DNA of 64,000 nucleotides, from contig MNDR01000039.1 in the NCBI GenBank assembly GCA_001915025.1, positions 1,132 to 65,131 on the forward strand, read 5' to 3'. Position 1 is the first letter of the stretch, and each line of letters starts with the position of its first letter. The notes under the pieces were generated by a model. That model worked only from the letters and a program-made list of their open reading frames with translations. It was not told the origin of the DNA and did no database searches. The stretch is from Gemmatimonadetes bacterium 13_2_20CM_2_65_7 (GTDB lineage: Bacteria; Gemmatimonadota; Gemmatimonadetes; Gemmatimonadales; GWC2-71-9). Positions 12,812 to 60,817 of this stretch are shown piece after piece. The translations under genes and the position numbers were made by a program.

Positions 12812-12854
12812 AATGATCAACGATCATTGGTCATTGATCATTGATCATTGAATT
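12812..12854. repeat. Tandem array of ~6 copies of a 7-nt unit (T)TGATCA, self-complementary
   Basis: The array reads atgatca acgatca ttggtca ttgatca ttgatca ttgaatt. It contains four GATC sites, is AT-rich for this genome, and lies between convergent genes. Confidence 0.8.
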
Positions 12855-13609: not shown

Positions 13610-16600
13610 TTACGAGCCGTAGGCGGCTGAGACGATGCGCTCCTGCTCTGCCTTGTGGGCCGCGGGGTAGCCTTCGGCGGGACTCGAGCGTTCCGGGCGC
13701 GACACATCGAGGAGCGCGACCGACTGCGGCAACGCCTCGCGAATCTTGGGCAGCACGAACTTGCGCGCGCCCATGTTGCGCGGCTCTTCCTGGACCCAGA
13801 CGACCTCTTTGAGATTCGGATAGCGGCGCGCGTATTCTCCGATCTCCGTGCCGGGGAAGGGATAGAGCAGCTCCAGCCGCCCGATTTTCACATGTGGCGT
13901 CTCAGTGCGGCGTGGCGAGGCGATGATGTCGTAGTAAATCTTGCCGCTGCACAACAGCAAGCGCGTGACTTTCTCGGGCCACGTCCGGTCGCGATCCCAA
14001 AGCACACTCCTGAACTGCCCCAATACGAGATCGTTGAGCTGGGAGGAGGCGGCCGGCAAGCGCAGCAAACTCTTGGGCGTCATCAGCACGAGCGGCCGGA
14101 TTTCCGTGTGCCGCGCCTGTCGCCGCAGCAGATGGAAGTATTGCGCCGGCGTGGTACAGTTCGCGACGCGAATGTTTCCTTCCGCCCCCAGCGCGAGAAA
14201 CCGCTCGACGCGCGCGCTCGAGTGCTCCGGGCCCTGGCCCTCGTAGCCGTGCGGCAGTAGCAGCGACAGCCGCGACGTCTCGCCCCATTTCGCAAGCCCC
14301 GCGATCAGGAACTGATCGATCACCACTTCGGCGCCGTTCGCGAAGTCGCCAAATTGTGCCTCCCACAGTACCAGCGCATCCTGCGCTTCGACGGCATAGC
14401 CATACTCGAAGCCGAGACAGGCGTATTCCGAGAGCGGGCTGTTGTGCAGCTCGAACGAAGCCCGGCCGTCGGGCAGGTTCTGAATCGGCGTATGTCGCGC
14501 GCCGGTGTGTATGTCGTGGAGCACGAGATGCCGCTGACTGAAGGTGCCGCGCTCGGTGTCCTGCCCGGTCAAGCGGATCGGTGTTCCCTCGATCAGCAGC
14601 GAGGCGAACGCCAACGACTCCGCGTGTGCCCACTCGATGCCGTCTTTGGACATGAGCACGTCACGACGCCGCTCGAGCTGCTTCTGCAGCTTGGGATGCA
14701 TCGCGAAGCCCTCCGGCACCGCGAGCAGCTGCTCGTTGAGCCGCTTCAGCGTCTCGGCGTCGACGGCCGTGGTGGGCTCGGGCGTGTTCTGGCGCTGGAT
14801 GCGCTGCGGCTCATCGGCGCGTTGTCCTGACTTCACCGCCTGCTGCACGGCCGCGAGCCTCTGGTAGGCGGCCTCCGCGTCCGCATCCGCTTGAGCGGCA
14901 GCGACGACGCCTTCTTGCGCGAGCTGCGCCGCGTACTTCTGACGGACGGATGGAGTCTGCTTGATCCGTTCGTACATCATCGGCTGCGTGTAGGCCGGCT
15001 CGTCGGCCTCGTTGTGACCGTAGCGGCGATATCCCACCAGATCGATCACGACGTCGCCATGGAAGTTGTCGCGGTACATCATCGCGAGCCGCACAGCCGC
15101 GAGACACGCCTCCGGATCATCGGCGTTCACGTGCACGATCGGCGCATCGAAGCCTTTGGCGAGATCGCTCGAGTAGTCGGTGGAGCGGCCTTCGCGCGGA
15201 TCCGTGGTGAAGCCGATCTGATTGTTGAGGATCAGATGGAACGTGCCGCCGGTCGTATAGCCGGGGAGTCGCGCGAGATTGAAGGTCTCCGCGACGACGC
15301 CCTGGCCCGCGAACGCGGCGTCGCCGTGCAGCAAGACCGGGAGCGCGACGTTCACGTCGAGTTGCACCGCCGCACCGCTCCGATTCGTTTGGTTCGCGCG
15401 GGCACGACCCTCGACGACCGGATTCACCGATTCCAGATGGCTGGGATTGGGCGAAACCATCACGGCGATGTCCTTGCCGCTCGCCGTGCGGTACACCCCC
15501 TCAGCGCCGTGGTGATACTTCACGTCACCGGTACCGGCGTTCCACCCTTCCGATTCAGCCGTCTCCTCGCGGCGGCCGCCCTCGAACTCCGCGAGGATCG
15601 TTTCGTACGGAACGTTCACGACGTGCGCGAGCACGTTGAGTCGTCCACGGTGCGCCATGCCGATGGTCGCCTGGCGCGTGCCGTGGGCCGCGGCGAGCTC
15701 CAGCGTGAAATCGAGCATCGGCACGGTCATGTCGAGGCCTTCGATCGAGAATCGCTTCTGGCCGAGGTATGCCTTGTGCAGGAAGCGCTCGAGCGTGTCG
15801 ACCGCCGTCAGCCGCGCCAGCAGCTGCCTCTTTCCATCCGCGGAGAGCGGCCGCCGATGCTGGCCCGATTCGATCACTTGCCTGAGCCACAGGCGCTCTT
15901 CGTGACTCCCGATGTGTTCGACCTCATAGGCGATCGTGCCGCAGTAGGTCGCCTGGAGATACGGCAGCGCGTCCGCGAGTGTCTTGCCTGGCACATAGAT
16001 GCGGAGCACTTCGGCGGGGATTCGCGCCATGATCTCCGGCGTGAGTCCCAACCGGCCGATGTCGAGGGAAGGATCGCCGGGCGGCTCGCTGCCGAGGGGA
16101 TCGAGATGGGCGGCGAGGTGGCCGAAATTCCTATGCGCCCGGACCAGCGCGTAGGCCGCAGCTACATGTTTAAGATCCTCGACACCCACGGCCTCCGGTT
16201 GGGGAAGGGGGACGGGGGAAGAGGGAAGGGTACTGCGGGGAGCCGCAGGAGTCGGAGGGGCCGCCGTGTACCCTTCCCCCTTCCCGCTTCCCCCTTCCCC
16301 TTTTGCCAGGCTCTCCGTCACCAGGTCGTAGAACCGTTCCTCTCCCTGCAACAGGGAATCCAGGTACCGCAGAAACATTCCCGACTCCGCGCCCTGAATG
16401 ATCCGGTGATCGTACGTGCTCGTGATCGTGATGATCTTCGTGCCCCCCCCGGTGATCTCGCGGATGGTGCCGGTCGCGATGATCGAGCCCTGGCCCTTCA
16501 TGAGACGCGGGACCGACGCCACGGTACCCAGCGTGCCGGGGTTTGTGAGCTGGATCGTGCCGCCGGCGAAATCGTCCGGCAGGAGCCGGTTGATGCGCGC

Positions 16601-17257
16601 CTTCTCGACGAGCGTTTCGTACGCCGCGTGGAACGCCGCGAAGTCCATCGACTCGGCGTGCTTGATCACCGGTACGACGAGCGCCCGGCTGCCGTCCTTC
16701 TTCTCGACGTCGACTGCTAGGCCCAGGCCGATGGCGCCTGGGTCGACGCGATGGGGCTTGCCGTCGATTTCCTGGAACGCGTGCGTCATGACCGGGAACC
16801 GCTTGGCCGCCTGCACGATCGCGTAGCCGATCAGGTGTGTGAACGAGATTTTCCTACCGCTTGCCGCGAGCTGGGCATTGAGCGCCTTGCGACGCGCGTC
16901 AAGGTTCGTGGCCGGGATGTCGCGGAAGGACGTCGCCGTCGGGACCGTCAGCGACTCCGTCATGTTGGCTACTAACCGAGCAGCCGGACCCGTCATGGGC
17001 ACGGCACCAGGAGCAGGGAGCATGGAGCGGGGAGCAGAAGGCGCTGGAGGAGAAGGCGCTGGAGCGAGAGGTGCGGGCGCGGTTACTGCTCCCTGCTCCT
17101 TGCTCCCTGCTCCCTGAATTATCGGCAGCTCCGCCAGCTTGCCGTTATCAAACAACTCCCGCCATTCCTGTCCTACGGAAGCCGGATCGCGGAGGTAGTC
17201 CTCGTACATCGCCTGGACGAAGGCGGCGTTGTGGGTGCCGAAGATGAATTCGCTCAC
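13610..17257 (-). CDS. sucA: Multifunctional 2-oxoglutarate dehydrogenase E1 with fused E2-type succinyltransferase catalytic domain (OdhA/Kgd architecture)
   Basis: The protein has an N-terminal 2-oxoglutarate-DH motif (NAAFVQAMYEDYLRDPASV) and an acyltransferase catalytic domain (TSTYDHRIIQGAESG). A TPP-dependent E1o follows (RLNVLAHV..., LLHGDAAFAGQGVV, LLLPHGYEGQGPEHSSAR). GTG 17257 (VSEFIFG...) is preferred over the tracked TTG 17290. Confidence 0.9.
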   Translation of the reverse strand: MSEFIFGTHNAAFVQAMYEDYLRDPASVGQEWRELFDNGKLAELPIIQGAGSKEQGAVTAPAPLAPAPSPPAPSAPRSMLPAPGAVPMTGPAARLVANMTESLTVPTATSFRDIPATNLDARRKALNAQLAASGRKISFTHLIGYAIVQAAKRFPVMTHAFQEIDGKPHRVDPGAIGLGLAVDVEKKDGSRALVVPVIKHAESMDFAAFHAAYETLVEKARINRLLPDDFAGGTIQLTNPGTLGTVASVPRLMKGQGSIIATGTIREITGGGTKIITITSTYDHRIIQGAESGMFLRYLDSLLQGEERFYDLVTESLAKGEGGSGKGEGYTAAPPTPAAPRSTLPSSPVPLPQPEAVGVEDLKHVAAAYALVRAHRNFGHLAAHLDPLGSEPPGDPSLDIGRLGLTPEIMARIPAEVLRIYVPGKTLADALPYLQATYCGTIAYEVEHIGSHEERLWLRQVIESGQHRRPLSADGKRQLLARLTAVDTLERFLHKAYLGQKRFSIEGLDMTVPMLDFTLELAAAHGTRQATIGMAHRGRLNVLAHVVNVPYETILAEFEGGRREETAESEGWNAGTGDVKYHHGAEGVYRTASGKDIAVMVSPNPSHLESVNPVVEGRARANQTNRSGAAVQLDVNVALPVLLHGDAAFAGQGVVAETFNLARLPGYTTGGTFHLILNNQIGFTTDPREGRSTDYSSDLAKGFDAPIVHVNADDPEACLAAVRLAMMYRDNFHGDVVIDLVGYRRYGHNEADEPAYTQPMMYERIKQTPSVRQKYAAQLAQEGVVAAAQADADAEAAYQRLAAVQQAVKSGQRADEPQRIQRQNTPEPTTAVDAETLKRLNEQLLAVPEGFAMHPKLQKQLERRRDVLMSKDGIEWAHAESLAFASLLIEGTPIRLTGQDTERGTFSQRHLVLHDIHTGARHTPIQNLPDGRASFELHNSPLSEYACLGFEYGYAVEAQDALVLWEAQFGDFANGAEVVIDQFLIAGLAKWGETSRLSLLLPHGYEGQGPEHSSARVERFLALGAEGNIRVANCTTPAQYFHLLRRQARHTEIRPLVLMTPKSLLRLPAASSQLNDLVLGQFRSVLWDRDRTWPEKVTRLLLCSGKIYYDIIASPRRTETPHVKIGRLELLYPFPGTEIGEYARRYPNLKEVVWVQEEPRNMGARKFVLPKIREALPQSVALLDVSRPERSSPAEGYPAAHKAEQERIVSAAYGS
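16201..16300. repeat. 100-bp imperfect palindrome inside kgd (E2-E1 linker), arms of CTTCCCC-like tandem units
   Basis: The left arm 16201-16233 (ggggaagggggacgggggaagagggaagggtac) matches the reverse complement of the right arm 16268-16300 at 30/33. The loop is 34 nt and has its own tgcgg/ccgca mini-stem. TTTT follows on the + strand. It encodes ...KGEGGSGKGEGYTAAPPTPAAPRSTLPSSPVPLPQ... in frame. Confidence 0.85.
17008..17116. repeat. 109-bp imperfect palindrome inside kgd (N-terminal linker), arms of CTGCTCC tandem units
   Basis: The left arm 17008-17037 matches the reverse complement of the right arm 17086-17116 at 28/31 with one indel. The 48-nt loop contains a 15-bp direct repeat agaaggcgctggag x2. 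It encodes ...QGAGSKEQGAVTAPAPLAPAPSPPAPSAPRSMLPAPGAVP... in frame. Confidence 0.85.
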
Positions 17258-17292
17258 GGGTTGGAATCTATAGGGTATCTTATTTCGCAAGT

Positions 17293-35019: not shown

Positions 35020-35897
35020 AGCGTCTCCTTCAGCCACGCGACCACGTTCGGCCAGCAGGACTGGCGCGCGCGGTCGGATAGCACCAGGCCACGATGCGTC
35101 AATCCCGGCTCGACCGCGAGCAGCTTGCGACGCGATCCGACGCGGTCGACGACCTGCCGGCACGCCGCTGGCGGCGCGAAGATCCGATCGGCGGTCCCCG
35201 CCACGCCAAGGTACGGGACGCTCACTGCCGCCAGGCCGCCAAAGTAGTCGAATCCATCCATCCCGAGCCACGCGCCGCGCACGTTCCACTCCATCCATTC
35301 GGCGATGATTTCCGCCGCCTCGTCTTCGTTGCCGAAGCGCAGCGCCCGCGCCGGGAAGCGACCCAACGCGCGCGACAGCGCAATCGTGGAGGCGGCGAGC
35401 GTCCTCCGTACGGGTCCGAGCCGGCGCGGGCCCGGCGTCCCGAGCGTGACGACCGCGGCAAGCGGAGCCGCCGCCGCAACGCGCGCCAGCCAGCACAGAC
35501 CCGCGGCGCCGCCTGCCGAGTGTCCGATCCACGCGAGTGGCGCGCCGTCGGTCTCTTCGCGCACGCGAGCAACCAATGTGGGCGTATCGTTCAGGACCCA
35601 ATCCTCGAACGTCCAGGCACCGCGTCGCGGTTCGCGCGCGCTTTCGCCATGATGTCGGAGATCGGCGAGCCAGACGTCCAGGCCCGCGGCGCCGAGGAAA
35701 TGGGCCATCCCCCCCATCCCCCCCATCCCCCCCATCCCCCCCATCCCTCCCGTGCCGTCTTCGGAGTGCAGCCAGAAGCGATGATTCGTGAAGGCGCCGT
35801 GGACCAGCAACACGGCGGGGCGGCCGTCTCGATAGGCGCGCATGCGATGCAGCGCCAGTTCCACGCCGTCGGGCGTGGAGATGAGGCGCGCCGTCAT
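35016..35897 (-). CDS. Alpha/beta hydrolase with in-frame (GMG)n insertion
   Basis: 293 aa with the HGAFTNHRFW oxyanion region and nucleophile elbow GHSAGG. The sequence GTGGMGGMGGMGGMGGMAH is encoded by the 9-bp repeat at 35707-35751. Confidence 0.8.
   Translation of the reverse strand: MTARLISTPDGVELALHRMRAYRDGRPAVLLVHGAFTNHRFWLHSEDGTGGMGGMGGMGGMGGMAHFLGAAGLDVWLADLRHHGESAREPRRGAWTFEDWVLNDTPTLVARVREETDGAPLAWIGHSAGGAAGLCWLARVAAAAPLAAVVTLGTPGPRRLGPVRRTLAASTIALSRALGRFPARALRFGNEDEAAEIIAEWMEWNVRGAWLGMDGFDYFGGLAAVSVPYLGVAGTADRIFAPPAACRQVVDRVGSRRKLLAVEPGLTHRGLVLSDRARQSCWPNVVAWLKETL
35707..35751. repeat. 9-bp tandem repeat (atccccccc x4 + atccctccc), in frame
   Basis: The 'a' residues fall at 35707, 35716, 35725, 35734 and 35743. 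On the coding (minus) strand this reads (atg ggg ggg)n, giving M-G-G repeats. Confidence 0.9.
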
Positions 35898-37162
35898 TCG
35901 TAGCGTCCCGCCGCGCGATAGGAGTCATCGAGCAGCTCGACCGGGTGACGCACGCGCGCCGGAACCCTGGCGGCCGCCAACCCAGCGCCGATTTGCATCA
36001 CGCAGCCGGGATTGCCGGTCGCGACGACCTGCGGCGCCGCGACTCGCAGCCGCTCGATCTTTGCCGCCAACACCGCGCGCGACATCTCCGGTTCGAGCAG
36101 TGTGAACAGCCCCGCGCTCCCGCAACACTCGGCGGCGCCGGGCACGTGCACGAGCTCGAGCAGCGGGATCGCCGCGAAGAGCTTCAGCGGCGGAACGGCG
36201 ACGCCTTGCGCGTGCAGGAGATGACACGGTGGATCGTACGCGACGTGCAGGTCGAGCGGGGCTCCCGGCACCGGTCCCTTGATCGCATCGCCGGCGAGGA
36301 GCTCGGTCACGTCGCGAACGCGCGCAGCGAGACGCTCGCATCGCTCGTCACCGAGGAGACGCCCGTACTCTTTCATCATGGCCCCACATCCGGCGCTGTT
36401 CACGACGATGGGTTCCTCGCCATCGCCGAATGCATCGACATTCTTGCGCGCCAGCTCGCGTGCCTCGTCGATCAATCCCGCGTGTGCATGCAGCGCACCA
36501 CAGCACCCCTGGCCCGAGACTTCGCGGACGTCGTAGCCGTTGATACCTAAGGTGCGCACGGTGGCATCGTGGACGTGGGAGAAGAGACCGTCTTGGACGC
36601 AGCCCCGGAATAACTGGACGGTAAGGGACGGTAAGGGACGGTAAGGGACGGTAGGAGTTATGCGCCTACCCTCACCGTCTCTTACCGTCCCATACCGTCT
36701 CTTACCGTCAGGTTTTGTCGCCGCCAGCATCCCCATGGCAAATCGGAATCTTCCCCAGCCAGCGAACAGTCGCGGGAGTCCGGTCGCTCTCAGCACGCGA
36801 GCGAACCAGTACACGACCGCACTCACTCCCGGCGTCGTCAGCGCCCAGAGCGCCATTCTCGCAAGGCGCGGAACGCCGCGAGCGGTGGTGAGTCGTGCGC
36901 GAGCCGCCTCGAGGCCATGGCCATACTGCACACCCGAAGGGCAGACGGGCTCGCAGCCGCGGCAGCCGAGACAGCGATCGAGGTGGTAGGCGAGCGCGGC
37001 ATCGTCGGCGGTCAGGTCGCCGCGCTCGAGGGCCCGCATCAGCTCGATGCGGCCGCGTGGTGAATCGGATTCATCTCCGGTGGCGAGGAACGTCGGGCAA
37101 GCTTGAAGACAGAAACCGCAATGCACGCATGCGTCCAGCCCTTCGAAGCCTCCTCGCGTCAT
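35894..37162 (-). CDS. glcF: Glycolate oxidase iron-sulfur subunit
   Basis: Start at MTRGGFEGLDACVHCGFCLQACPTF (ATG 37162, ATGA overlap). There is a second cluster motif CLGCRGCEPVCPSGV and two CCG-type domains (FRGCVQD..., PPCHLLHAQG...CCGSAG). Confidence 0.85.
   Translation of the reverse strand: MTRGGFEGLDACVHCGFCLQACPTFLATGDESDSPRGRIELMRALERGDLTADDAALAYHLDRCLGCRGCEPVCPSGVQYGHGLEAARARLTTARGVPRLARMALWALTTPGVSAVVYWFARVLRATGLPRLFAGWGRFRFAMGMLAATKPDGKRRYGTVRDGEGRRITPTVPYRPLPSLTVQLFRGCVQDGLFSHVHDATVRTLGINGYDVREVSGQGCCGALHAHAGLIDEARELARKNVDAFGDGEEPIVVNSAGCGAMMKEYGRLLGDERCERLAARVRDVTELLAGDAIKGPVPGAPLDLHVAYDPPCHLLHAQGVAVPPLKLFAAIPLLELVHVPGAAECCGSAGLFTLLEPEMSRAVLAAKIERLRVAAPQVVATGNPGCVMQIGAGLAAARVPARVRHPVELLDDSYRAAGRYE
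36614..36712. repeat. 99-bp imperfect palindrome inside glcF, arms of four GACGGTAAGG units
   Basis: The left arm 36614-36655 reads ctg(gacggtaagg)x3 gacggtagg. The right arm 36665-36712 is its reverse complement at about 85-90% unit identity, with a 9-nt loop agttatgcg. TTTT follows on the + strand. It encodes ...KPDGKRRYGTVRDGEGRRITPTVPYRPLPSLTVQ... in frame. Confidence 0.9.
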
Positions 37163-38367: not shown

Positions 38368-39866
38368 GGAACAGGCTCTAATGTGGAATGCGAAATGGGA
38401 AATGCGGAATTGAACTGTCGATCGTCATTTCGCATTCCGAATTTCGCACTTCGAATTGATGTCCACTCCCGGCACGCGTGCACCGGTACCACCTTGCCGG
38501 GGTTCACCCGTTCTTTCGGATCGAACACCCGCCGCACCGCCTGCATTGCACCCAGAGACTCCGGATCGAAGATGAGCGGCATGTAGCGCAGCTTGTCGAT
38601 GCCCACGCCATGCTCGCCCGTGATCGTACCACCGGCGGCGATGCATGTCGACATGATCTCCGCGCTCGCGGCTTCGACGCGTTGTTTGAGCGCCGGATCG
38701 GTGGCATCGAACGAAATATTGGGATGCAGATTGCCGTCACCCGCGTGAAAGACGTTGCTGACGACGAGGTCATACCGTTTCGCGATTGTGCAAATCGTTT
38801 CGAGAACCTGCGGGAGCGCGGAGCGCGGCACCACGGCGTCCTGCACGACCAGGTCGCGCGACAGTCGTCCCATGGCGCCGAACGCCTTCTTGCGTCCCTG
38901 CCACAGTCGCTCGCGCTCCGCTTCGCTCGCGGCAATGCGCACCGAGCGCGCGCCCGATTTCCGCAGCAGCTCGGCAACCGCCTCGGTCTCCGCGATGACG
39001 CCGGCCTCGTTGCGGCCGTCCAGCTCCACGAGCAGGACGGCGGCGGCATCGCGCGGATACCCCGCCGCATACACAGAATCCTCGACGGCGGCGATGCAGG
39101 ATTGATCCATCATCTCGAGGGCCGCCGGCACGATGCCGGCGGCGATGATCGCGGAGACTGCTTCACCTGCCGTCCGCAGTCCATTGAAGTCCGCGAGCAT
39201 CGTTCGCACCGCGCGTGGCAGCGGCGTCAGACGCACGGTGATTTTCGTGGCGATGCCGAAGTTTCCCTCGGAACCCACGAACAGCCCGACGAGATCGGGA
39301 CCCCACGGCTCGCCGCCGGGGCTCCCGCTTTCCACCATCGTGCCGTCGGCGAGCAATAGCTCGAGCGCGAGCACGTGATTCGCGGTGACGCCGTACTTGA
39401 GACAGTGTGGCCCGCCGGCGTTCTCGGCCACGTTCCCGCCGATCGTGCAGGCGCTCTGGCTCGAGGGATCGGGCGCGTACTGCAATCCGTGTGGCTGTGC
39501 CGCTGCGCTCAGCTTCGCGTTCACGACGCCGGGCTCCACGATCGCTGCACGGTTGCCAGCATCCATCTTGAGAATCCGATTCAACCGTGTCAGCACGATC
39601 AGAACGGAGCCTTCATCTGCTAGCGCGCCGCCCGAGAGACCAGTCCCCGCGCCGCGCGGCACGAACGGAACGTCGTGCGCAGCGAGCAGACGCACGACCG
39701 CGATCAATTCTTCGCGAGTACCCGGAAGAACTACGAGATCGGGAAGGCGGCGATGAGTGGGAAGCCCGTCCATCGAGTATGTGACGCGCTCCGCGCGAGC
39801 TTCGCGAACGTGCCGAGCTCCAACAATAGAAGCGAGGTCCGGAGCCAGGTGAGAAAGCGAGGACAT
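38364..39866 (-). CDS. glcD: Glycolate oxidase subunit GlcD (FAD-linked oxidase)
   Basis: Carries FAD-linked oxidase motifs (VPFVPRGAGTGLSGGAL ... HAGDGNLHPNI ... GTITGEHGVGIDK). ATG 39866 (MSSLSHLAPDL) is preferred because the tracked TTG 39923 would overlap the upstream terminator hairpin. Confidence 0.85.
   Translation of the reverse strand: MSSLSHLAPDLASIVGARHVREARAERVTYSMDGLPTHRRLPDLVVLPGTREELIAVVRLLAAHDVPFVPRGAGTGLSGGALADEGSVLIVLTRLNRILKMDAGNRAAIVEPGVVNAKLSAAAQPHGLQYAPDPSSQSACTIGGNVAENAGGPHCLKYGVTANHVLALELLLADGTMVESGSPGGEPWGPDLVGLFVGSEGNFGIATKITVRLTPLPRAVRTMLADFNGLRTAGEAVSAIIAAGIVPAALEMMDQSCIAAVEDSVYAAGYPRDAAAVLLVELDGRNEAGVIAETEAVAELLRKSGARSVRIAASEAERERLWQGRKKAFGAMGRLSRDLVVQDAVVPRSALPQVLETICTIAKRYDLVVSNVFHAGDGNLHPNISFDATDPALKQRVEAASAEIMSTCIAAGGTITGEHGVGIDKLRYMPLIFDPESLGAMQAVRRVFDPKERVNPGKVVPVHACREWTSIRSAKFGMRNDDRQFNSAFPISHSTLEPVP
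38385..38458. repeat. 74-bp imperfect palindrome in the 3' tail of glcD, arms of four GGAATGC-like 7-mers
   Basis: The left arm is ggaatgc gaaatgg gaaatgc ggaattg (38385-38412). The right arm is catttcg cattccg aatttcg cacttcg aattg (38426-38458). In one register 38385-38397 pairs perfectly (13 bp) with 38426-38438. In another register a 24-nt imperfect stem forms. It encodes ...EWTSIRSAKFGMRNDDRQFNSAFPISH... before the ATGA junction with glcE. Confidence 0.85.
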
Positions 39867-59767: not shown

Positions 59768-60752
59768 GGTCGAACGCGCGGTCGACGACATTCGCCGCAG
59801 ATGGGTGCCGGACGGCCGGCTCGGCGTCTTCGAGGTCTCCCTCCTGCCGAAGGGTGTCACAGGCGTGACCTCGAGTCGCGACGCGCGCGATGCGCTGCGG
59901 CGACTTGCCGGTGAACAGGAGCTGGTCGAGCAGGTGCGTCTGCTGCCGGACGAGACCGTCACCGACGCCGCCGCCATCGTCACCGCAGCACTGGCGCCGC
60001 TGCTCGACGCTCCGCAGCTGTCCGCGCCGCGCGTCAACGAAGCGCTGCACGGCGAATCACTCGATGTCCTGGAGCGCCGCGACGACTGGCTGCGCGTGCG
60101 CGCGCCCGACGGCTACGTCGCGTGGACCCACGCCGGCTATGTAGCGACGGGCGCGACGGATTGGGCGGACGATTGGCGCGAGCGCGCAACCGCGCGATCG
60201 CTGAGCGCCGACATTGTAACGACCTACAGCCGGCGTCGCCTTCCCACTGGCGCGCGCGTCGCGTTGCGGCGTGGGGTGGTAGAGCTTGCCGATGGGCTGG
60301 AGGGCGCCGTGGCCGGCGGCTACGTCCGCCGGGAGCAGGAGCTGCGCGCGGAAGCGCGGCACCTCGCGTTGCCCGAGCTCGCGCTCAAGTGGTTTTCCGG
60401 CGCGCCATATCTGTGGGGTGGCCGCACGGAGTGGGGCATCGATTGCTCGGGACTCGCGCAGGCGGTGTACGCGGCACGCGGCATTCGGCTGCCGCGCGAC
60501 AGCGATCAGCAATTCGTTGAGGGAAAGGAGCTCGCGATCGCCGCGGACGGGAAAGGCTACGAAGCGGGCGATCTGCTCTTCTTTGCTGAACGCGGTCGAG
60601 TCTCTCACGTCGCGTTGTGGTCCGGGGCTGGGCACGTCGTGCATGCCGCGCTCTCGCGTGGCGGCGTCGCCTCCGACCATTTGTTCGGTGATGAACCGCG
60701 CATGAGACGGCTGCGGGAAATTCTGGTGGGTGTGAGGCGGTTCGGCGGTTAA
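59760..60752 (+). CDS. C40 (NlpC/P60) peptidase with N-terminal SH3b-like domains
   Basis: The catalytic region is YLWGGRTEWGIDCSGLAQAVY...GDLLFF...SHVALW, giving a Cys/His pair. Overlaps the upstream gene by 8 nt. Confidence 0.8.
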   Translation: MDKVERAVDDIRRRWVPDGRLGVFEVSLLPKGVTGVTSSRDARDALRRLAGEQELVEQVRLLPDETVTDAAAIVTAALAPLLDAPQLSAPRVNEALHGESLDVLERRDDWLRVRAPDGYVAWTHAGYVATGATDWADDWRERATARSLSADIVTTYSRRRLPTGARVALRRGVVELADGLEGAVAGGYVRREQELRAEARHLALPELALKWFSGAPYLWGGRTEWGIDCSGLAQAVYAARGIRLPRDSDQQFVEGKELAIAADGKGYEAGDLLFFAERGRVSHVALWSGAGHVVHAALSRGGVASDHLFGDEPRMRRLREILVGVRRFGG

Positions 60753-60806
60753 GCGGTTAGGCGGTTCGAGATGCCGCCCGCCTAACCGCCCAACCGCTTA
60801 ACCGCC
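60736..60806. repeat. 71-bp imperfect palindrome of four GGCGGTTA units per arm, at the 3' end of the C40 peptidase gene
   Basis: The left arm is ggcggttc ggcggtta agcggtta ggcggttc (60736-60768). The right arm is ccgcccg cctaaccg cccaaccg cttaaccg cc (60774-60806), with about 26/32 complementarity. tatttta follows on the + strand, so it could be the intrinsic terminator of this operon. The stop codon TAA 60750-60752 lies inside the left arm. Confidence 0.85.
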
Positions 60807-60817
60807 TATTTTAGTCC

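What the first reader, a model, noticed from the sequence alone, without database searches (positions are those of the whole stretch)
16201..16300. In-frame 100-bp palindrome in the E2-E1 linker of kgd
The arms 16201-16233 and 16268-16300 match at 30/33. The loop carries its own tgcgg/ccgca stem. On the coding (minus) strand one arm is read as KGEGGSGKGEG and the other as PSSPVPLPQ, so the peptide is the two translations of the same repeat. On the + strand the hairpin is followed by TTTT, which is terminator-like but antisense to kgd.
Basis: seen in the sequence. Interest (0 to 1): 0.6.

Follow-up and report, generated by a model that had tools for sequence, protein, structure and literature searches.

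The report
Translated heptamer-repeat hairpin in kgd
The 100-base palindrome between two domains of the 2-oxoglutarate dehydrogenase gene is real, but it is one copy of a genome-wide family of hairpin repeats with four 7-base units per arm, tolerated inside genes because any frame reads as floppy Gly- or Pro-rich peptide; it is a good example of a poorly understood repeat class, not a device specific to this gene.

Summary
Observation confirmed: arms 16201-16233 and 16268-16300 pair at 30/33, in frame in the E2-E1 linker of a 1226-aa Kgd/OdhA gene of a Gemmatimonadales MAG.

Each arm is a defined 33-nt unit, (GGGGAAG)x4+GGGTAC, with about 21 copies in this genome. The genome holds 157 G/C-skewed arrays of 7-, 8- or 10-nt units. 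All 25 close pairs run G-rich arm then C-rich arm.

In 16 congeners both Kgd linkers carry such hairpins, but with at least 8 different units, patchy on the gene tree. More distant Gemmatimonadales and other phyla have linkers of similar length without hairpins. AlaRS, FtsK, RarA and RsmB show the same habit.

The same arms flank a frameshifted PF05635 (23S-rRNA-IVS/S23p, Avd-like) gene at C87, and 26-28 of 30 PF05635 genes in the genus sit between tandem-array arms. The kgd palindrome therefore looks like a gene-less miniature of that element.

No target-site duplication, no linked RAYT and no reverse transcriptase were found. RNase III was not found in 150 of 151 Gemmatimonadales genomes.

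Closest described: the G-rich heptamer repeats of Xanthomonas and Nostoc (Rehm 2015) and IVS/S23p elements. This scan has met the class before, in at least 71 genomes, including kgd of another Gemmatimonadales genome. Verdict: new variant of a known kind.

The parts
13610..17290 (-). Host gene: Kgd/OdhA-type fused E2-E1 2-oxoglutarate dehydrogenase, 1226 aa. The frame is open through both hairpins.
   Evidence: ORF list and translation. Five Pfam domains. Matches PDB 8p5r and 8p5t full length, E 1e-293.
16201..16233 (+). Arm 1: GGGGAAGGGGGACGGGGGAAGAGGGAAGGGTAC, G-rich on the + strand. On the coding (-) strand it is the C-rich arm, read as (S)TLPSSPVPLPQ. It has a canonical G3+N1-7 x4 quadruplex motif.
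   Evidence: It matches the 33-nt family consensus at 31/33 and the copy at C52:19577-19609 at 32/33.
16234..16267 (.). Loop of 34 nt, read as (Y)TAAPPTPAAPR(S). It contains a small TGCGG/CCGCA stem. The inner flank GGGTAC-TGCGGG is shared with the PF05635-bearing element at C87.
   Evidence: No loop homology by site or by family could be shown.
16268..16300 (+). Arm 2: GTACCCTTCCCCCTTCCCGCTTCCCCCTTCCCC. Its reverse complement is the G-rich arm on the coding strand, read as KGEGGSGKGEGY.
   Evidence: It is 33/33 identical to the copy at C65:12648-12680 inside a UvrD-like gene, and 32/33 to the consensus.
16301..16304 (+). TTTT after the hairpin. These are lysine/alanine codons (..GCA AAA..) on the coding strand, not a terminator tail.
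17010..17116 (.). Second hairpin of the same kind in the N-terminal linker of the same gene. Its arms are (GGAGCAG)x4, at 17010-17037 and 17086-17116, and it reads GAGSKEQGA...APRSMLPAP.
   Evidence: arm 28 nt, 26 matches, MFE z -4.9.

Best explanation
The palindrome is a gene-less copy of a dispersed hairpin element. Each arm is a four-unit tandem array of a G-rich heptamer, here the 33-nt unit (GGGGAAG)4GGGTAC. The arrangement is always 5'-G-rich arm, loop, C-rich arm-3'. The full-length form of such elements carries a small PF05635 gene (23S-rRNA-IVS/S23p, Avd-like four-helix bundle) in the loop.

Most copies lie between genes. A minority survive inside genes for three reasons. A heptamer array has no stop codon on either strand. 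Three units make 21 nt, so every frame gives the same 7-aa repeat: GEGGRGK from one strand and LPPSPFP from the other. Those peptides are acceptable in disordered inter-domain linkers.

In kgd both linkers were colonised in the ancestor of the genus. Since then the arms have been replaced many times by arrays of other units, by copying from other copies and/or by recombination of linker alleles between lineages. Linker length stayed in the same range as outside the genus.

Shown here: the repeat family, its chirality, its depletion in ORFs, the turnover among orthologues, and the link to PF05635 genes. Inferred: that it is selfish or neutral for Kgd, that the peptide only acts as a spacer, and that the PF05635 protein takes part in spreading. 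How copies are made is unknown.
For: - Family: about 21 copies match the consensus GGGGAAGGGGGAAGGGGGAAGGGGGAAGGGTAC at 27-33 of 33 (one degenerate copy at 21/33), with sharp ends, in unrelated genes.
- Census: 157 skewed arrays of period 7/8/10, of which 94 have about 4 units. All 25 adjacent pairs are G-to-C and 24 of 25 use the same unit. About 18% lie deep inside ORFs, against 49% of random windows.
- Kgd orthologues: 22 of 32 linkers have ungapped arms of at least 18 nt at 85% or better, median MFE z -4.3, and 31 of 32 have a G-rich 5' arm.
- Unit families are patchy on the Kgd tree. Sisters L013 (A,C) and L014 (B,B) differ at both linkers.
- Of about 120 further Kgd proteins, most of those read by eye show the Gly-rich...Pro-rich signature, with at least 12 unit types.
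- More distant relatives have linkers of similar length without a hairpin.
- One AlaRS site carries solo 4-unit arrays of four families in different congeners, and an array-less sequence in one clade.
- The arms also flank real conserved coding sequence in RarA and RsmB.
- PF05635: a frameshifted gene lies inside the family-A element C87:8871-9362. Array-flanked genes lie at C8, C25 and C101. 26-28 of 30 loci in the genus have tandem-array arms.
- Literature: convergent 4-unit G-rich heptamer pairs, mostly intergenic (PMC4692102). IVS with S23p ORF, 28-bp terminal stem and tandem heptamers (PMC4990558). PF05635 resembles Avd (PMC10053308).
Against: - No movement was observed directly. There is no empty site at near-identity, no target-site duplication and no identified enzyme.
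- The large families GGGAAAC, GGGAGCA and GCGAAAT have no PF05635-bearing copy in this 82%-complete assembly.
- The order-wide comparison of PF05635 with arrays was inconclusive.
- All 16 congeners keep a hairpin at linker 2 and 14-15 at linker 1, which a purely neutral element need not do.
- Among 11 orthologous GGGGAAG elements there is a modest excess of compensatory cells: 7 cells, reached by 1 of 500 shuffles. That could mean the stem is maintained.
- The patchiness on the tree can partly come from recombination or chimeric metagenome contigs (mosaics P0002, P0027, P0065).
Confidence: 0.68

Rival explanations
1. The hairpin is a selected, gene-specific RNA (or DNA) structure. A strong stem, or a G-quadruplex/hairpin switch, placed exactly at the domain boundaries of kgd slows ribosomes to help co-translational folding of the E2 and E1 modules, or tunes mRNA stability. 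The unit sequence is free to change as long as pairing is kept.
For: A hairpin is present at linker 2 in 16 of 16 congeners and at linker 1 in 14-15 of 16, despite complete change of sequence. Both arms always use the same unit, while the two linkers of one gene share a unit in only 7 of 16. There is a modest compensatory signal within the GGGGAAG orthologues. Hairpins sit at domain boundaries in FtsK, RsmB and glcF too.
Against: - More distant Gemmatimonadales and other phyla with the same fused enzyme have no hairpin.
- The same arms occur about 20 times in unrelated places, mostly outside ORFs, including solo arms that cannot pair.
- Conserved mismatches persist across orthologues: columns 13/58 and 15/56 are unpaired in 6-7 of 11. 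Pairing is therefore not tightly kept.
- Domain boundaries are simply where insertions are tolerated.
Confidence: 0.14
2. There is no element at all. The arrays arise and change in place, by replication slippage of G-rich Gly/Glu codons. The inverted partner is made by local template switching (quasi-palindrome correction). Shared units reflect the few heptamers that are stop-free and translatable.
For: Heptamers are the over-represented repeat size in GC-rich bacteria and slippage has been proposed (PMC4692102 discussion). Unit number varies among strains in Coxiella (PMC4990558). At the AlaRS site the arrays replace a segment of nearly equal length with a similar K/E/G composition. There is no target-site duplication.
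Against: - The non-repeat end tag GGGTAC, and the inner flank GCAGTACCC, recur at many unlinked loci and in other genomes.
- 33/33 and 32/33 identity between the kgd arms and arms in other genes.
- An exact 29-mer with the same order of variant units is shared by kgd and alaS within G016.
- The same arms surround PF05635 genes.
Confidence: 0.12
3. It is a classical MITE, REP/REPIN or Rickettsia-palindromic-element-type insertion, mobilised by a transposase (a RAYT or an IS-encoded enzyme).
For: It is palindromic, about 100 bp, multi-copy and in frame in genes like RPEs. Paired and solo copies recall REPIN/REP. Two Y1_Tnp (PF01797) genes exist in the genome.
Against: There is no target-site duplication. 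The arms are not themselves palindromes and lack GTAG/CGTC tags. The Y1 genes are flanked by a different hairpin repeat (GCCCTAAAGGGC..). The arms can bracket resident coding sequence (RarA, RsmB), and a unit can be swapped at a fixed site, which unit insertion does not predict.
Confidence: 0.05
4. It is an intrinsic terminator for an antisense transcript.
For: A strong hairpin followed by TTTT on the + strand.
Against: Only 4 T and a 34-nt loop. The consensus scan finds no terminator. The other strand has no T tract. Orthologues with other units lack the T run.
Confidence: 0.01

Closest known systems
G-rich heptameric repeats of Xanthomonas (GGGAATC) and Nostoc (GGGGAYT), with their convergent inverted pairs (Rehm et al. 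2015, PLoS One, PMC4692102)
   Same: Tandem G3+N4 heptamers with a marked preference for four units. Tens to hundreds of dispersed copies. 70-75 pairs per genome, always convergent (G-rich then C-rich). Able to form a stem-loop or a G-quadruplex. Mostly intergenic and under-represented in ORFs. Repeat length and sequence differ between close species.
   Different: Here there are many unit families side by side (7, 8 and 10 nt), with a non-repeat end tag (GGGTAC). Copies are translated in frame in linkers of essential genes. The unit is swapped at fixed sites among congeners. There is a demonstrated link to PF05635 genes. The phylum is different (Gemmatimonadota).
23S rRNA intervening sequences carrying an S23p ORF (Leptospira, Coxiella, Brucella; Ralph & McClelland 1993; Warrier et al. 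2016, PMC4990558)
   Same: A long terminal inverted repeat forms a stem of about 28-33 bp around a loop. The loop holds a PF05635 four-helix-bundle gene in full-length copies (C87, C8, C25, C101 here). Tandem heptamers occur in the arm region. The ORF is often decaying. It was proposed long ago to be a mobile or selfish element of unknown mechanism.
   Different: The kgd copy has no ORF, sits in a protein-coding gene rather than rRNA, and is translated. IVS are cut out of rRNA by RNase III, which was not found in this lineage.
Rickettsia palindromic elements (RPE; Ogata et al. 2000; reviewed in PMC10969869)
   Same: Palindromic repeats of about 100-150 bp inserted in frame in many unrelated protein genes, translated, and placed where they do not disturb the fold.
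   Different: There is no sequence relation. RPE arms are not tandem short repeats. RPEs do not show unit swapping at a site. The host range differs.
REP/BIME and REPIN elements with RAYT transposases (Bertels & Rainey 2011, PMC3116915; Di Nocera 2013, PMC3733652)
   Same: Short interspersed hairpin-forming repeats, found as inverted doublets plus singletons, mostly just downstream of genes.
   Different: REPs are themselves imperfect palindromes with a GTAG or CGTC tag and a cognate RAYT. Neither feature is met here.

Membership tests
G-rich heptamer repeats with convergent pairs (Rehm 2015 type) | Arm is a tandem array of heptamers, each with a G3+ tract | tested here: met
   TRF gives period 7, 4.3 copies, for both arms. 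The sequence shows 5 G-tracts per arm.
G-rich heptamer repeats with convergent pairs (Rehm 2015 type) | Preference for about four units | tested here: met
   94 of 157 arrays round to 4 units. The kgd arms have 4.3.
G-rich heptamer repeats with convergent pairs (Rehm 2015 type) | Many dispersed copies in the genome, with pairs always convergent | tested here: met
   About 21 copies of this unit and 157 arrays in all. 25 of 25 adjacent pairs run G-rich then C-rich.
G-rich heptamer repeats with convergent pairs (Rehm 2015 type) | Predominantly intergenic | tested here: met
   Met for the class: about 18% of arrays lie deep in ORFs against 49% of random windows. This particular copy is one of the intragenic minority.
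G-rich heptamer repeats with convergent pairs (Rehm 2015 type) | G-quadruplex formation of the G-rich strand | not testable with these tools
   Only the G3+N1-7 x4 motif can be read from the sequence. CD or melting experiments are needed.
23S rRNA IVS / S23p (PF05635) element | Terminal inverted repeats forming a long stem | tested here: met
   33-nt arms, 30/33.
23S rRNA IVS / S23p (PF05635) element | PF05635 ORF in the loop | tested here: not met
   The loop is 34 nt with no ORF. The same arms do enclose a frameshifted PF05635 gene at C87:8993-9300. The kgd copy can therefore only be a gene-less derivative.
23S rRNA IVS / S23p (PF05635) element | Inserted in a 23S rRNA helix and removed by RNase III | tested here: not met
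   It lies in a protein gene. RNase III models PF00636, PF14622 and TIGR02191 find nothing in five 99-100% complete congeners.
Rickettsia palindromic elements | Palindromic repeat inserted in frame and translated in unrelated proteins | tested here: met
   Kgd (twice), FtsK, AlaRS, an NtrC-like protein, a UvrD-like protein, RarA and RsmB. This is a likeness in behaviour only.
Rickettsia palindromic elements | Sequence membership in families RPE-1 to RPE-8 of Rickettsia | not tested
   No RPE sequences were compared. The tandem-heptamer arm architecture differs from what is described for RPEs (own knowledge).
REP/REPIN-RAYT | Each REP is an imperfect palindrome with a GTAG/CGTC tag | tested here: not met
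   The arms are homopurine-rich arrays, not self-complementary. There is no such tag at the outer end.
REP/REPIN-RAYT | Cognate RAYT flanked by the same repeat | tested here: not met
   The two PF01797 genes at C38 are flanked by a different hairpin repeat.
MITE | Terminal inverted repeats plus a target-site duplication | tested here: not met
   The flanks of 21 copies show no direct duplication.

The most novel reading that the evidence does not exclude
Tandem-array hairpins, together with their PF05635 (S23p/Avd-like) gene-bearing forms, are one widespread and still uncharacterised kind of self-propagating element. It would spread or overwrite by a transposase-free, duplication-free copying route: a nucleic-acid-binding four-helix-bundle pentamer acting on G-rich arrays or hairpins at replication or repair. 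Its arm design (stop-free, frame-independent heptamers) would let it live as ready-made linker cassettes inside essential genes. In Gemmatimonadales the apparent absence of RNase III removes the cost of 30-bp RNA stems in mRNAs, which would explain the unusual load of in-frame copies.
Probability: 0.25. Interest if true: 0.8.

Novelty: new variant of a known kind. Interest (0 to 1): 0.5.

Why it matters
Paired heptamer repeats (Xanthomonas, cyanobacteria) and S23p-bearing rRNA intervening sequences have each been known for decades, without a mechanism and without being connected to each other.

Here the same arms occur with and without the S23p-type gene. Because some copies are in frame in conserved enzymes, their flanks can be aligned exactly across species. 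That turns kgd (two sites), alaS and ftsK into natural recorders of how fast and in what way such arrays are replaced. It also gives a concrete candidate protein (PF05635) and a concrete host trait (no RNase III) to test.

For annotation, it shows that Gly-rich...Pro-rich 'linkers' in these bacteria are repeat DNA and not evolved protein sequence.

Tried and rejected
- Target-site duplications: none at 21 copies.
- RAYT link: Y1_Tnp genes exist but carry other flanking hairpins.
- Reverse transcriptase: none in G000, and in only 1 of 5 near-complete congeners.
- Rfam: only sub-threshold hits to eukaryotic miRNA-precursor models, that is a generic long hairpin.
- Terminator or promoter: none found.
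- Loop homology: I first thought the Ala/Pro-coding loops were an ancestral core kept while the arms changed. Pairwise scores do not differ by site or by family (0.31-0.32 in all classes), so that claim is dropped.
- Order-wide correlation of arrays with PF05635: the pattern GGGRNNN x3+GGG is too narrow, it is polluted by poly-G runs, and its 'backwards' control also hits heptamers. 13-14 of 19 PF05635-free genomes have 6 or fewer hits, but several PF05635-rich genomes also have none. Inconclusive.
- Within-genome sharing of exact array strings between the kgd and alaS loci: 2 of 11 same-genome pairs reach 24 nt or more, against 7 of 277 cross-genome pairs. Suggestive only.
Full report
**Observation.** The arms are 16201-16233 and 16268-16300, 33 nt each, matching at 30/33, with a 34-nt loop. 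Either strand folds into one long stem: -87.3 and -80.6 kcal/mol, z -5.6 and -4.7, and none of 200 dinucleotide shuffles does as well. The element lies in the 1226-codon - strand ORF 13610-17290. This is a Kgd/OdhA-type fusion with the domains 2-oxogl_dehyd_N, 2-oxoacid_dh 96-316, E1_dh 499-823, Transket_pyr and OxoGdeHyase_C. The ORF aligns over its full length to M. smegmatis Kgd 8p5r and C. glutamicum OdhA 8p5t. The two arm peptides, KGEGGSGKGEG and LPSSPVPLPQ, fall in alignment gaps of the E2-E1 linker. The organism is a Gemmatimonadales MAG of 2.68 Mb, 101 contigs, 65% GC and 82% completeness.

**The arm is a dispersed repeat.** Searching the genome with the element returned about 20 further places that match one arm. 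Aligned, they give a sharp 33-nt unit, GGGGAAGGGGGAAGGGGGAAGGGGGAAGGGTAC. There are about 21 copies, 27-33 of 33 identical to the consensus apart from one degenerate copy at 21/33. Their flanks are unrelated and there is no target-site duplication. The two kgd arms match each other at 30/33. One arm is 33/33 identical to a copy inside a UvrD-like gene (C65), and the other is 32/33 identical to a copy at C52. Copies occur as inverted pairs at C24 (87 nt), C35 (this one), C92 (135 nt) and C87 (492 nt), and also as solo arms.

**The class in this genome.** TRF finds 157 strongly G/C-skewed arrays of period 7, 8 or 10 with at least 3 units, and 94 of them have about 4 units. The main units are GGGCGGTT, GGGGGAA, GGGAAAC, GGGAGCA, GCGAAAT/GGAATGC and GGGACGGTAA. 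There are 25 pairs of adjacent arrays within 250 nt. All 25 run G-rich then C-rich, and 24 of 25 use the same unit in both arms. Under random orientation only a quarter would be expected to do so. By a strict test (80 open codons and coding-like GC3 on both sides) about 18% of arrays lie deep inside ORFs, against 49% of random 30-nt windows. The class is therefore mainly extragenic, with a translated minority.

Heptamer arrays of these units have no stop codon on either strand. Because 3 x 7 = 21, every frame yields the same 7-residue repeat. This follows directly from the sequence.

**Orthologues.** Kgd genes from 16 genomes of the same genus (74-88% protein identity) were compared.
- In nearly all of them both linkers are hairpins, with MFE from -36 to -91 kcal/mol.
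- 22 of 32 linkers have ungapped arms of at least 18 nt at 85% or better. The median z is -4.3, and 31 of 32 have a G-rich 5' arm.
- The unit differs between species: GGGGAAG, GGAGCAG, GGGAAAC, GGGATGC, GGGAGTC, GCGCCGT-like, GGGGCCT and GGGGTTG-like.
- On a tree built from Kgd without the linkers the units are patchy. Sisters L013 (A,C) and L014 (B,B) differ at both sites, and so do L010 (B,B) and L011 (F?, simple hairpin).
- The two arms of a pair always share the unit. The two linkers of one gene share it in only 7 of 16.
- Of about 120 further Kgd proteins from metagenomes (72-97% identity in residues 230-470), most of those read by eye show the Gly-rich...Pro-rich signature, with at least 12 unit types.
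- Mosaics occur. P0002 has this linker 2 but a GGGAAAC-type linker 1. P0065 has this linker 1 but another linker 2. Recombination between lineages, or chimeric contigs, therefore contributes to the patchiness.
- More distant Gemmatimonadales (about 60% identity), Thermoleophilia and Eremiobacterota have Ala/Pro-rich linkers of 40-52 residues without any hairpin, and actinobacteria have a structured linker. The arms are thus a habit of this genus laid over an older linker, not a net insertion.

**Other genes.**
- At one AlaRS site (around residue 190) congeners carry solo four-unit arrays of four different families, while one clade has an array-less SKHERGNGE. Segment lengths are 66-75 nt throughout, so the array replaces resident sequence rather than adding to it.
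- FtsK has a GGGAAAC hairpin in its membrane-to-motor linker and a solo GGGGAAG arm before the gamma domain.
- An NtrC-like activator has a solo arm between its AAA+ and HTH domains.
- In RarA and RsmB the two arms bracket 90 and 207 nt of genuine conserved coding sequence.

**Link to a gene.** I followed a lead from earlier scan notes and searched for PF05635 (23S_rRNA_IVP). There are 7 hits in this genome.
- One is a frameshifted gene at C87:8993-9300, lying inside the 492-bp family-A element. That element has the same arms as kgd and the same inner flank GCAGTACCC.
- C8:17647-17958 lies between GGGCCTG arrays.
- C25:31809-32117 lies between 9-mer arrays.
- C101:18288 lies between GACGGTAAGG arrays, the unit of the glcF hairpin in this window.
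- All 25 genomes of the genus that were searched have 2-15 such genes. In 26-28 of 30 loci examined the gene is flanked by inverted tandem arrays, mostly heptamers.

According to the literature, the Coxiella 23S IVS is a 428-nt selfish element with a 28-bp terminal stem, an S23p ORF and tandem heptamers, and it is excised by RNase III. S23p of Xanthomonas is a pentamer of four-helix bundles (PMC4990558). PF05635 resembles the DGR accessory protein Avd (PMC10053308). The kgd palindrome is therefore best read as a gene-less miniature of this element type.

**Enzymes.**
- No reverse transcriptase was found in this genome, and only 1 of 5 near-complete congeners has one.
- Two Y1-transposase genes exist, but they sit between a different hairpin repeat.
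- RNase III was not found with PF14622 in this genome.
- It was also not found with PF00636, PF14622 or TIGR02191 in five 99-100% complete congeners.
- With PF14622 it was found in only 1 of 151 Gemmatimonadales genomes, while the control bacterial genomes ring.

I found no paper stating this absence. If it is real, 30-bp RNA stems in mRNAs escape the nuclease that removes IVS elsewhere.

**Is the stem maintained?** Eleven orthologous GGGGAAG elements at linker 2 were put in register.
- 88.7% of cells pair.
- 4 pairs and 7 cells show changes on both sides. These values are reached by 12 and 1 of 500 shuffles.
- Percent paired is reached by 23 of 500 shuffles.
- Two positions are mismatched in 6-7 of 11 sequences.

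Given the tool's stated false-positive behaviour for related sequences, this is weak to moderate evidence for maintenance. It is compatible with slow decay under protein constraint between replacements.

**Interpretation.** Shown: the repeat family, its fixed chirality, its depletion in ORFs, the occupation of both kgd linkers across the genus with unit turnover, and the association of such arms with PF05635 genes.

Inferred: that the kgd copy is a tolerated passenger whose peptides act as spacers, that arrays are overwritten by copying from other copies, and that the PF05635 protein is involved.

The uniform G-to-C chirality across unrelated units argues for a common generating mechanism rather than selection on stem stability, which is blind to arm order.

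The rivals are a selected pause or stability structure, purely local slippage plus template switching, and a transposase-driven MITE. They are weighed in their own sections.

The closest published description is Rehm et al. 2015 (PMC4692102): convergent, four-unit, G-quadruplex-capable heptamer pairs, 89-93% intergenic, function unknown.

This scan has already reported the class in at least 71 genomes, including kgd of another Gemmatimonadales genome. The finding is thus a confirmed and well-documented example, not a first sighting.

**Caveats.** All genomes are MAGs or metagenome contigs. Repeats are prone to assembly error, although independent assemblies agree. The ORF test is approximate.

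Noticed in passing
whole genome G000 and 150 other Gemmatimonadales genomes: RNase III was not found. PF14622 gives nothing in G000. PF00636, PF14622 and TIGR02191 give nothing in five 99-100% complete congeners. PF14622 hits only 1 of 151 genomes of the order, and that genome has 3% contamination. All bacterial control genomes ring. No paper stating this was found.
   Followed up: partly
G000 C87:8871-9362, C8:17474-18040, C25:31716-32242, C101:18196-18571: PF05635 (23S rRNA IVS / S23p, Avd-like) genes sit in the loops of hairpins whose arms are tandem arrays. The C87 copy is frameshifted and has the same arms as the kgd palindrome. There are 2-15 such genes in every genome of the genus.
   Followed up: yes
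window 17010-17116: A second in-frame hairpin in the same gene (N-terminal linker), with (GGAGCAG)x4 arms. P0065 from another metagenome has an identical linker 1 but a different linker 2, and P0002 shows the reverse. These are mosaic kgd alleles or chimeric contigs.
   Followed up: partly
G000 C85:6449-9133 (alaS); loci L109-L126: AlaRS carries solo arrays at three linker positions. At the first position four different unit families occupy the same site in different congeners, and one clade has none.
   Followed up: yes
G000 C60:42914-42948: A solo GGGGAAG array ends in GGAGGCGGCC directly before the ATG of a CusA/CzcA-type RND pump gene. The repeat may supply the 5' UTR or ribosome-binding site.
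   Followed up: no
G000 C85:13791-13944 (rarA) and C37:8346-8610 (rsmB): The two arms of a pair bracket 90 and 207 nt of genuine conserved coding sequence. The 'loop' of such hairpins can therefore be host sequence.
   Followed up: partly
G000 C38:16906-17205 and C38:20157-20438: Two near-identical short Y1_Tnp (PF01797) genes, each flanked by REP-like hairpins (..GTGCCCTAAAGGGCCGGCTCGGCC..GCGTCCTAAAGGACGC..). This is a separate repeat system from the heptamer arrays.
   Followed up: partly
window 12814-12851: An array of about 5 units of TGATCAT-like heptamers, self-complementary, in the region downstream of kgd. In G007 and G003 a PF05635 gene lies directly downstream of kgd.
   Followed up: no
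window 36616-36709, 38387-38410, 60735-60808, 35705-35751: Further tandem-array hairpins or arrays in the window: GACGGTAAGG decamers in glcF, AATGCGA heptamers, AGGCGGTT octamers, and a (CCATCCCCC)x5 array.
   Followed up: no
G000 C4:1298-1323, C74:4661-4685 and several relatives: Runs of 25 or more G or C on contigs, probably sequencing or assembly artefacts. They inflate pattern counts for G-rich repeats.
   Followed up: no
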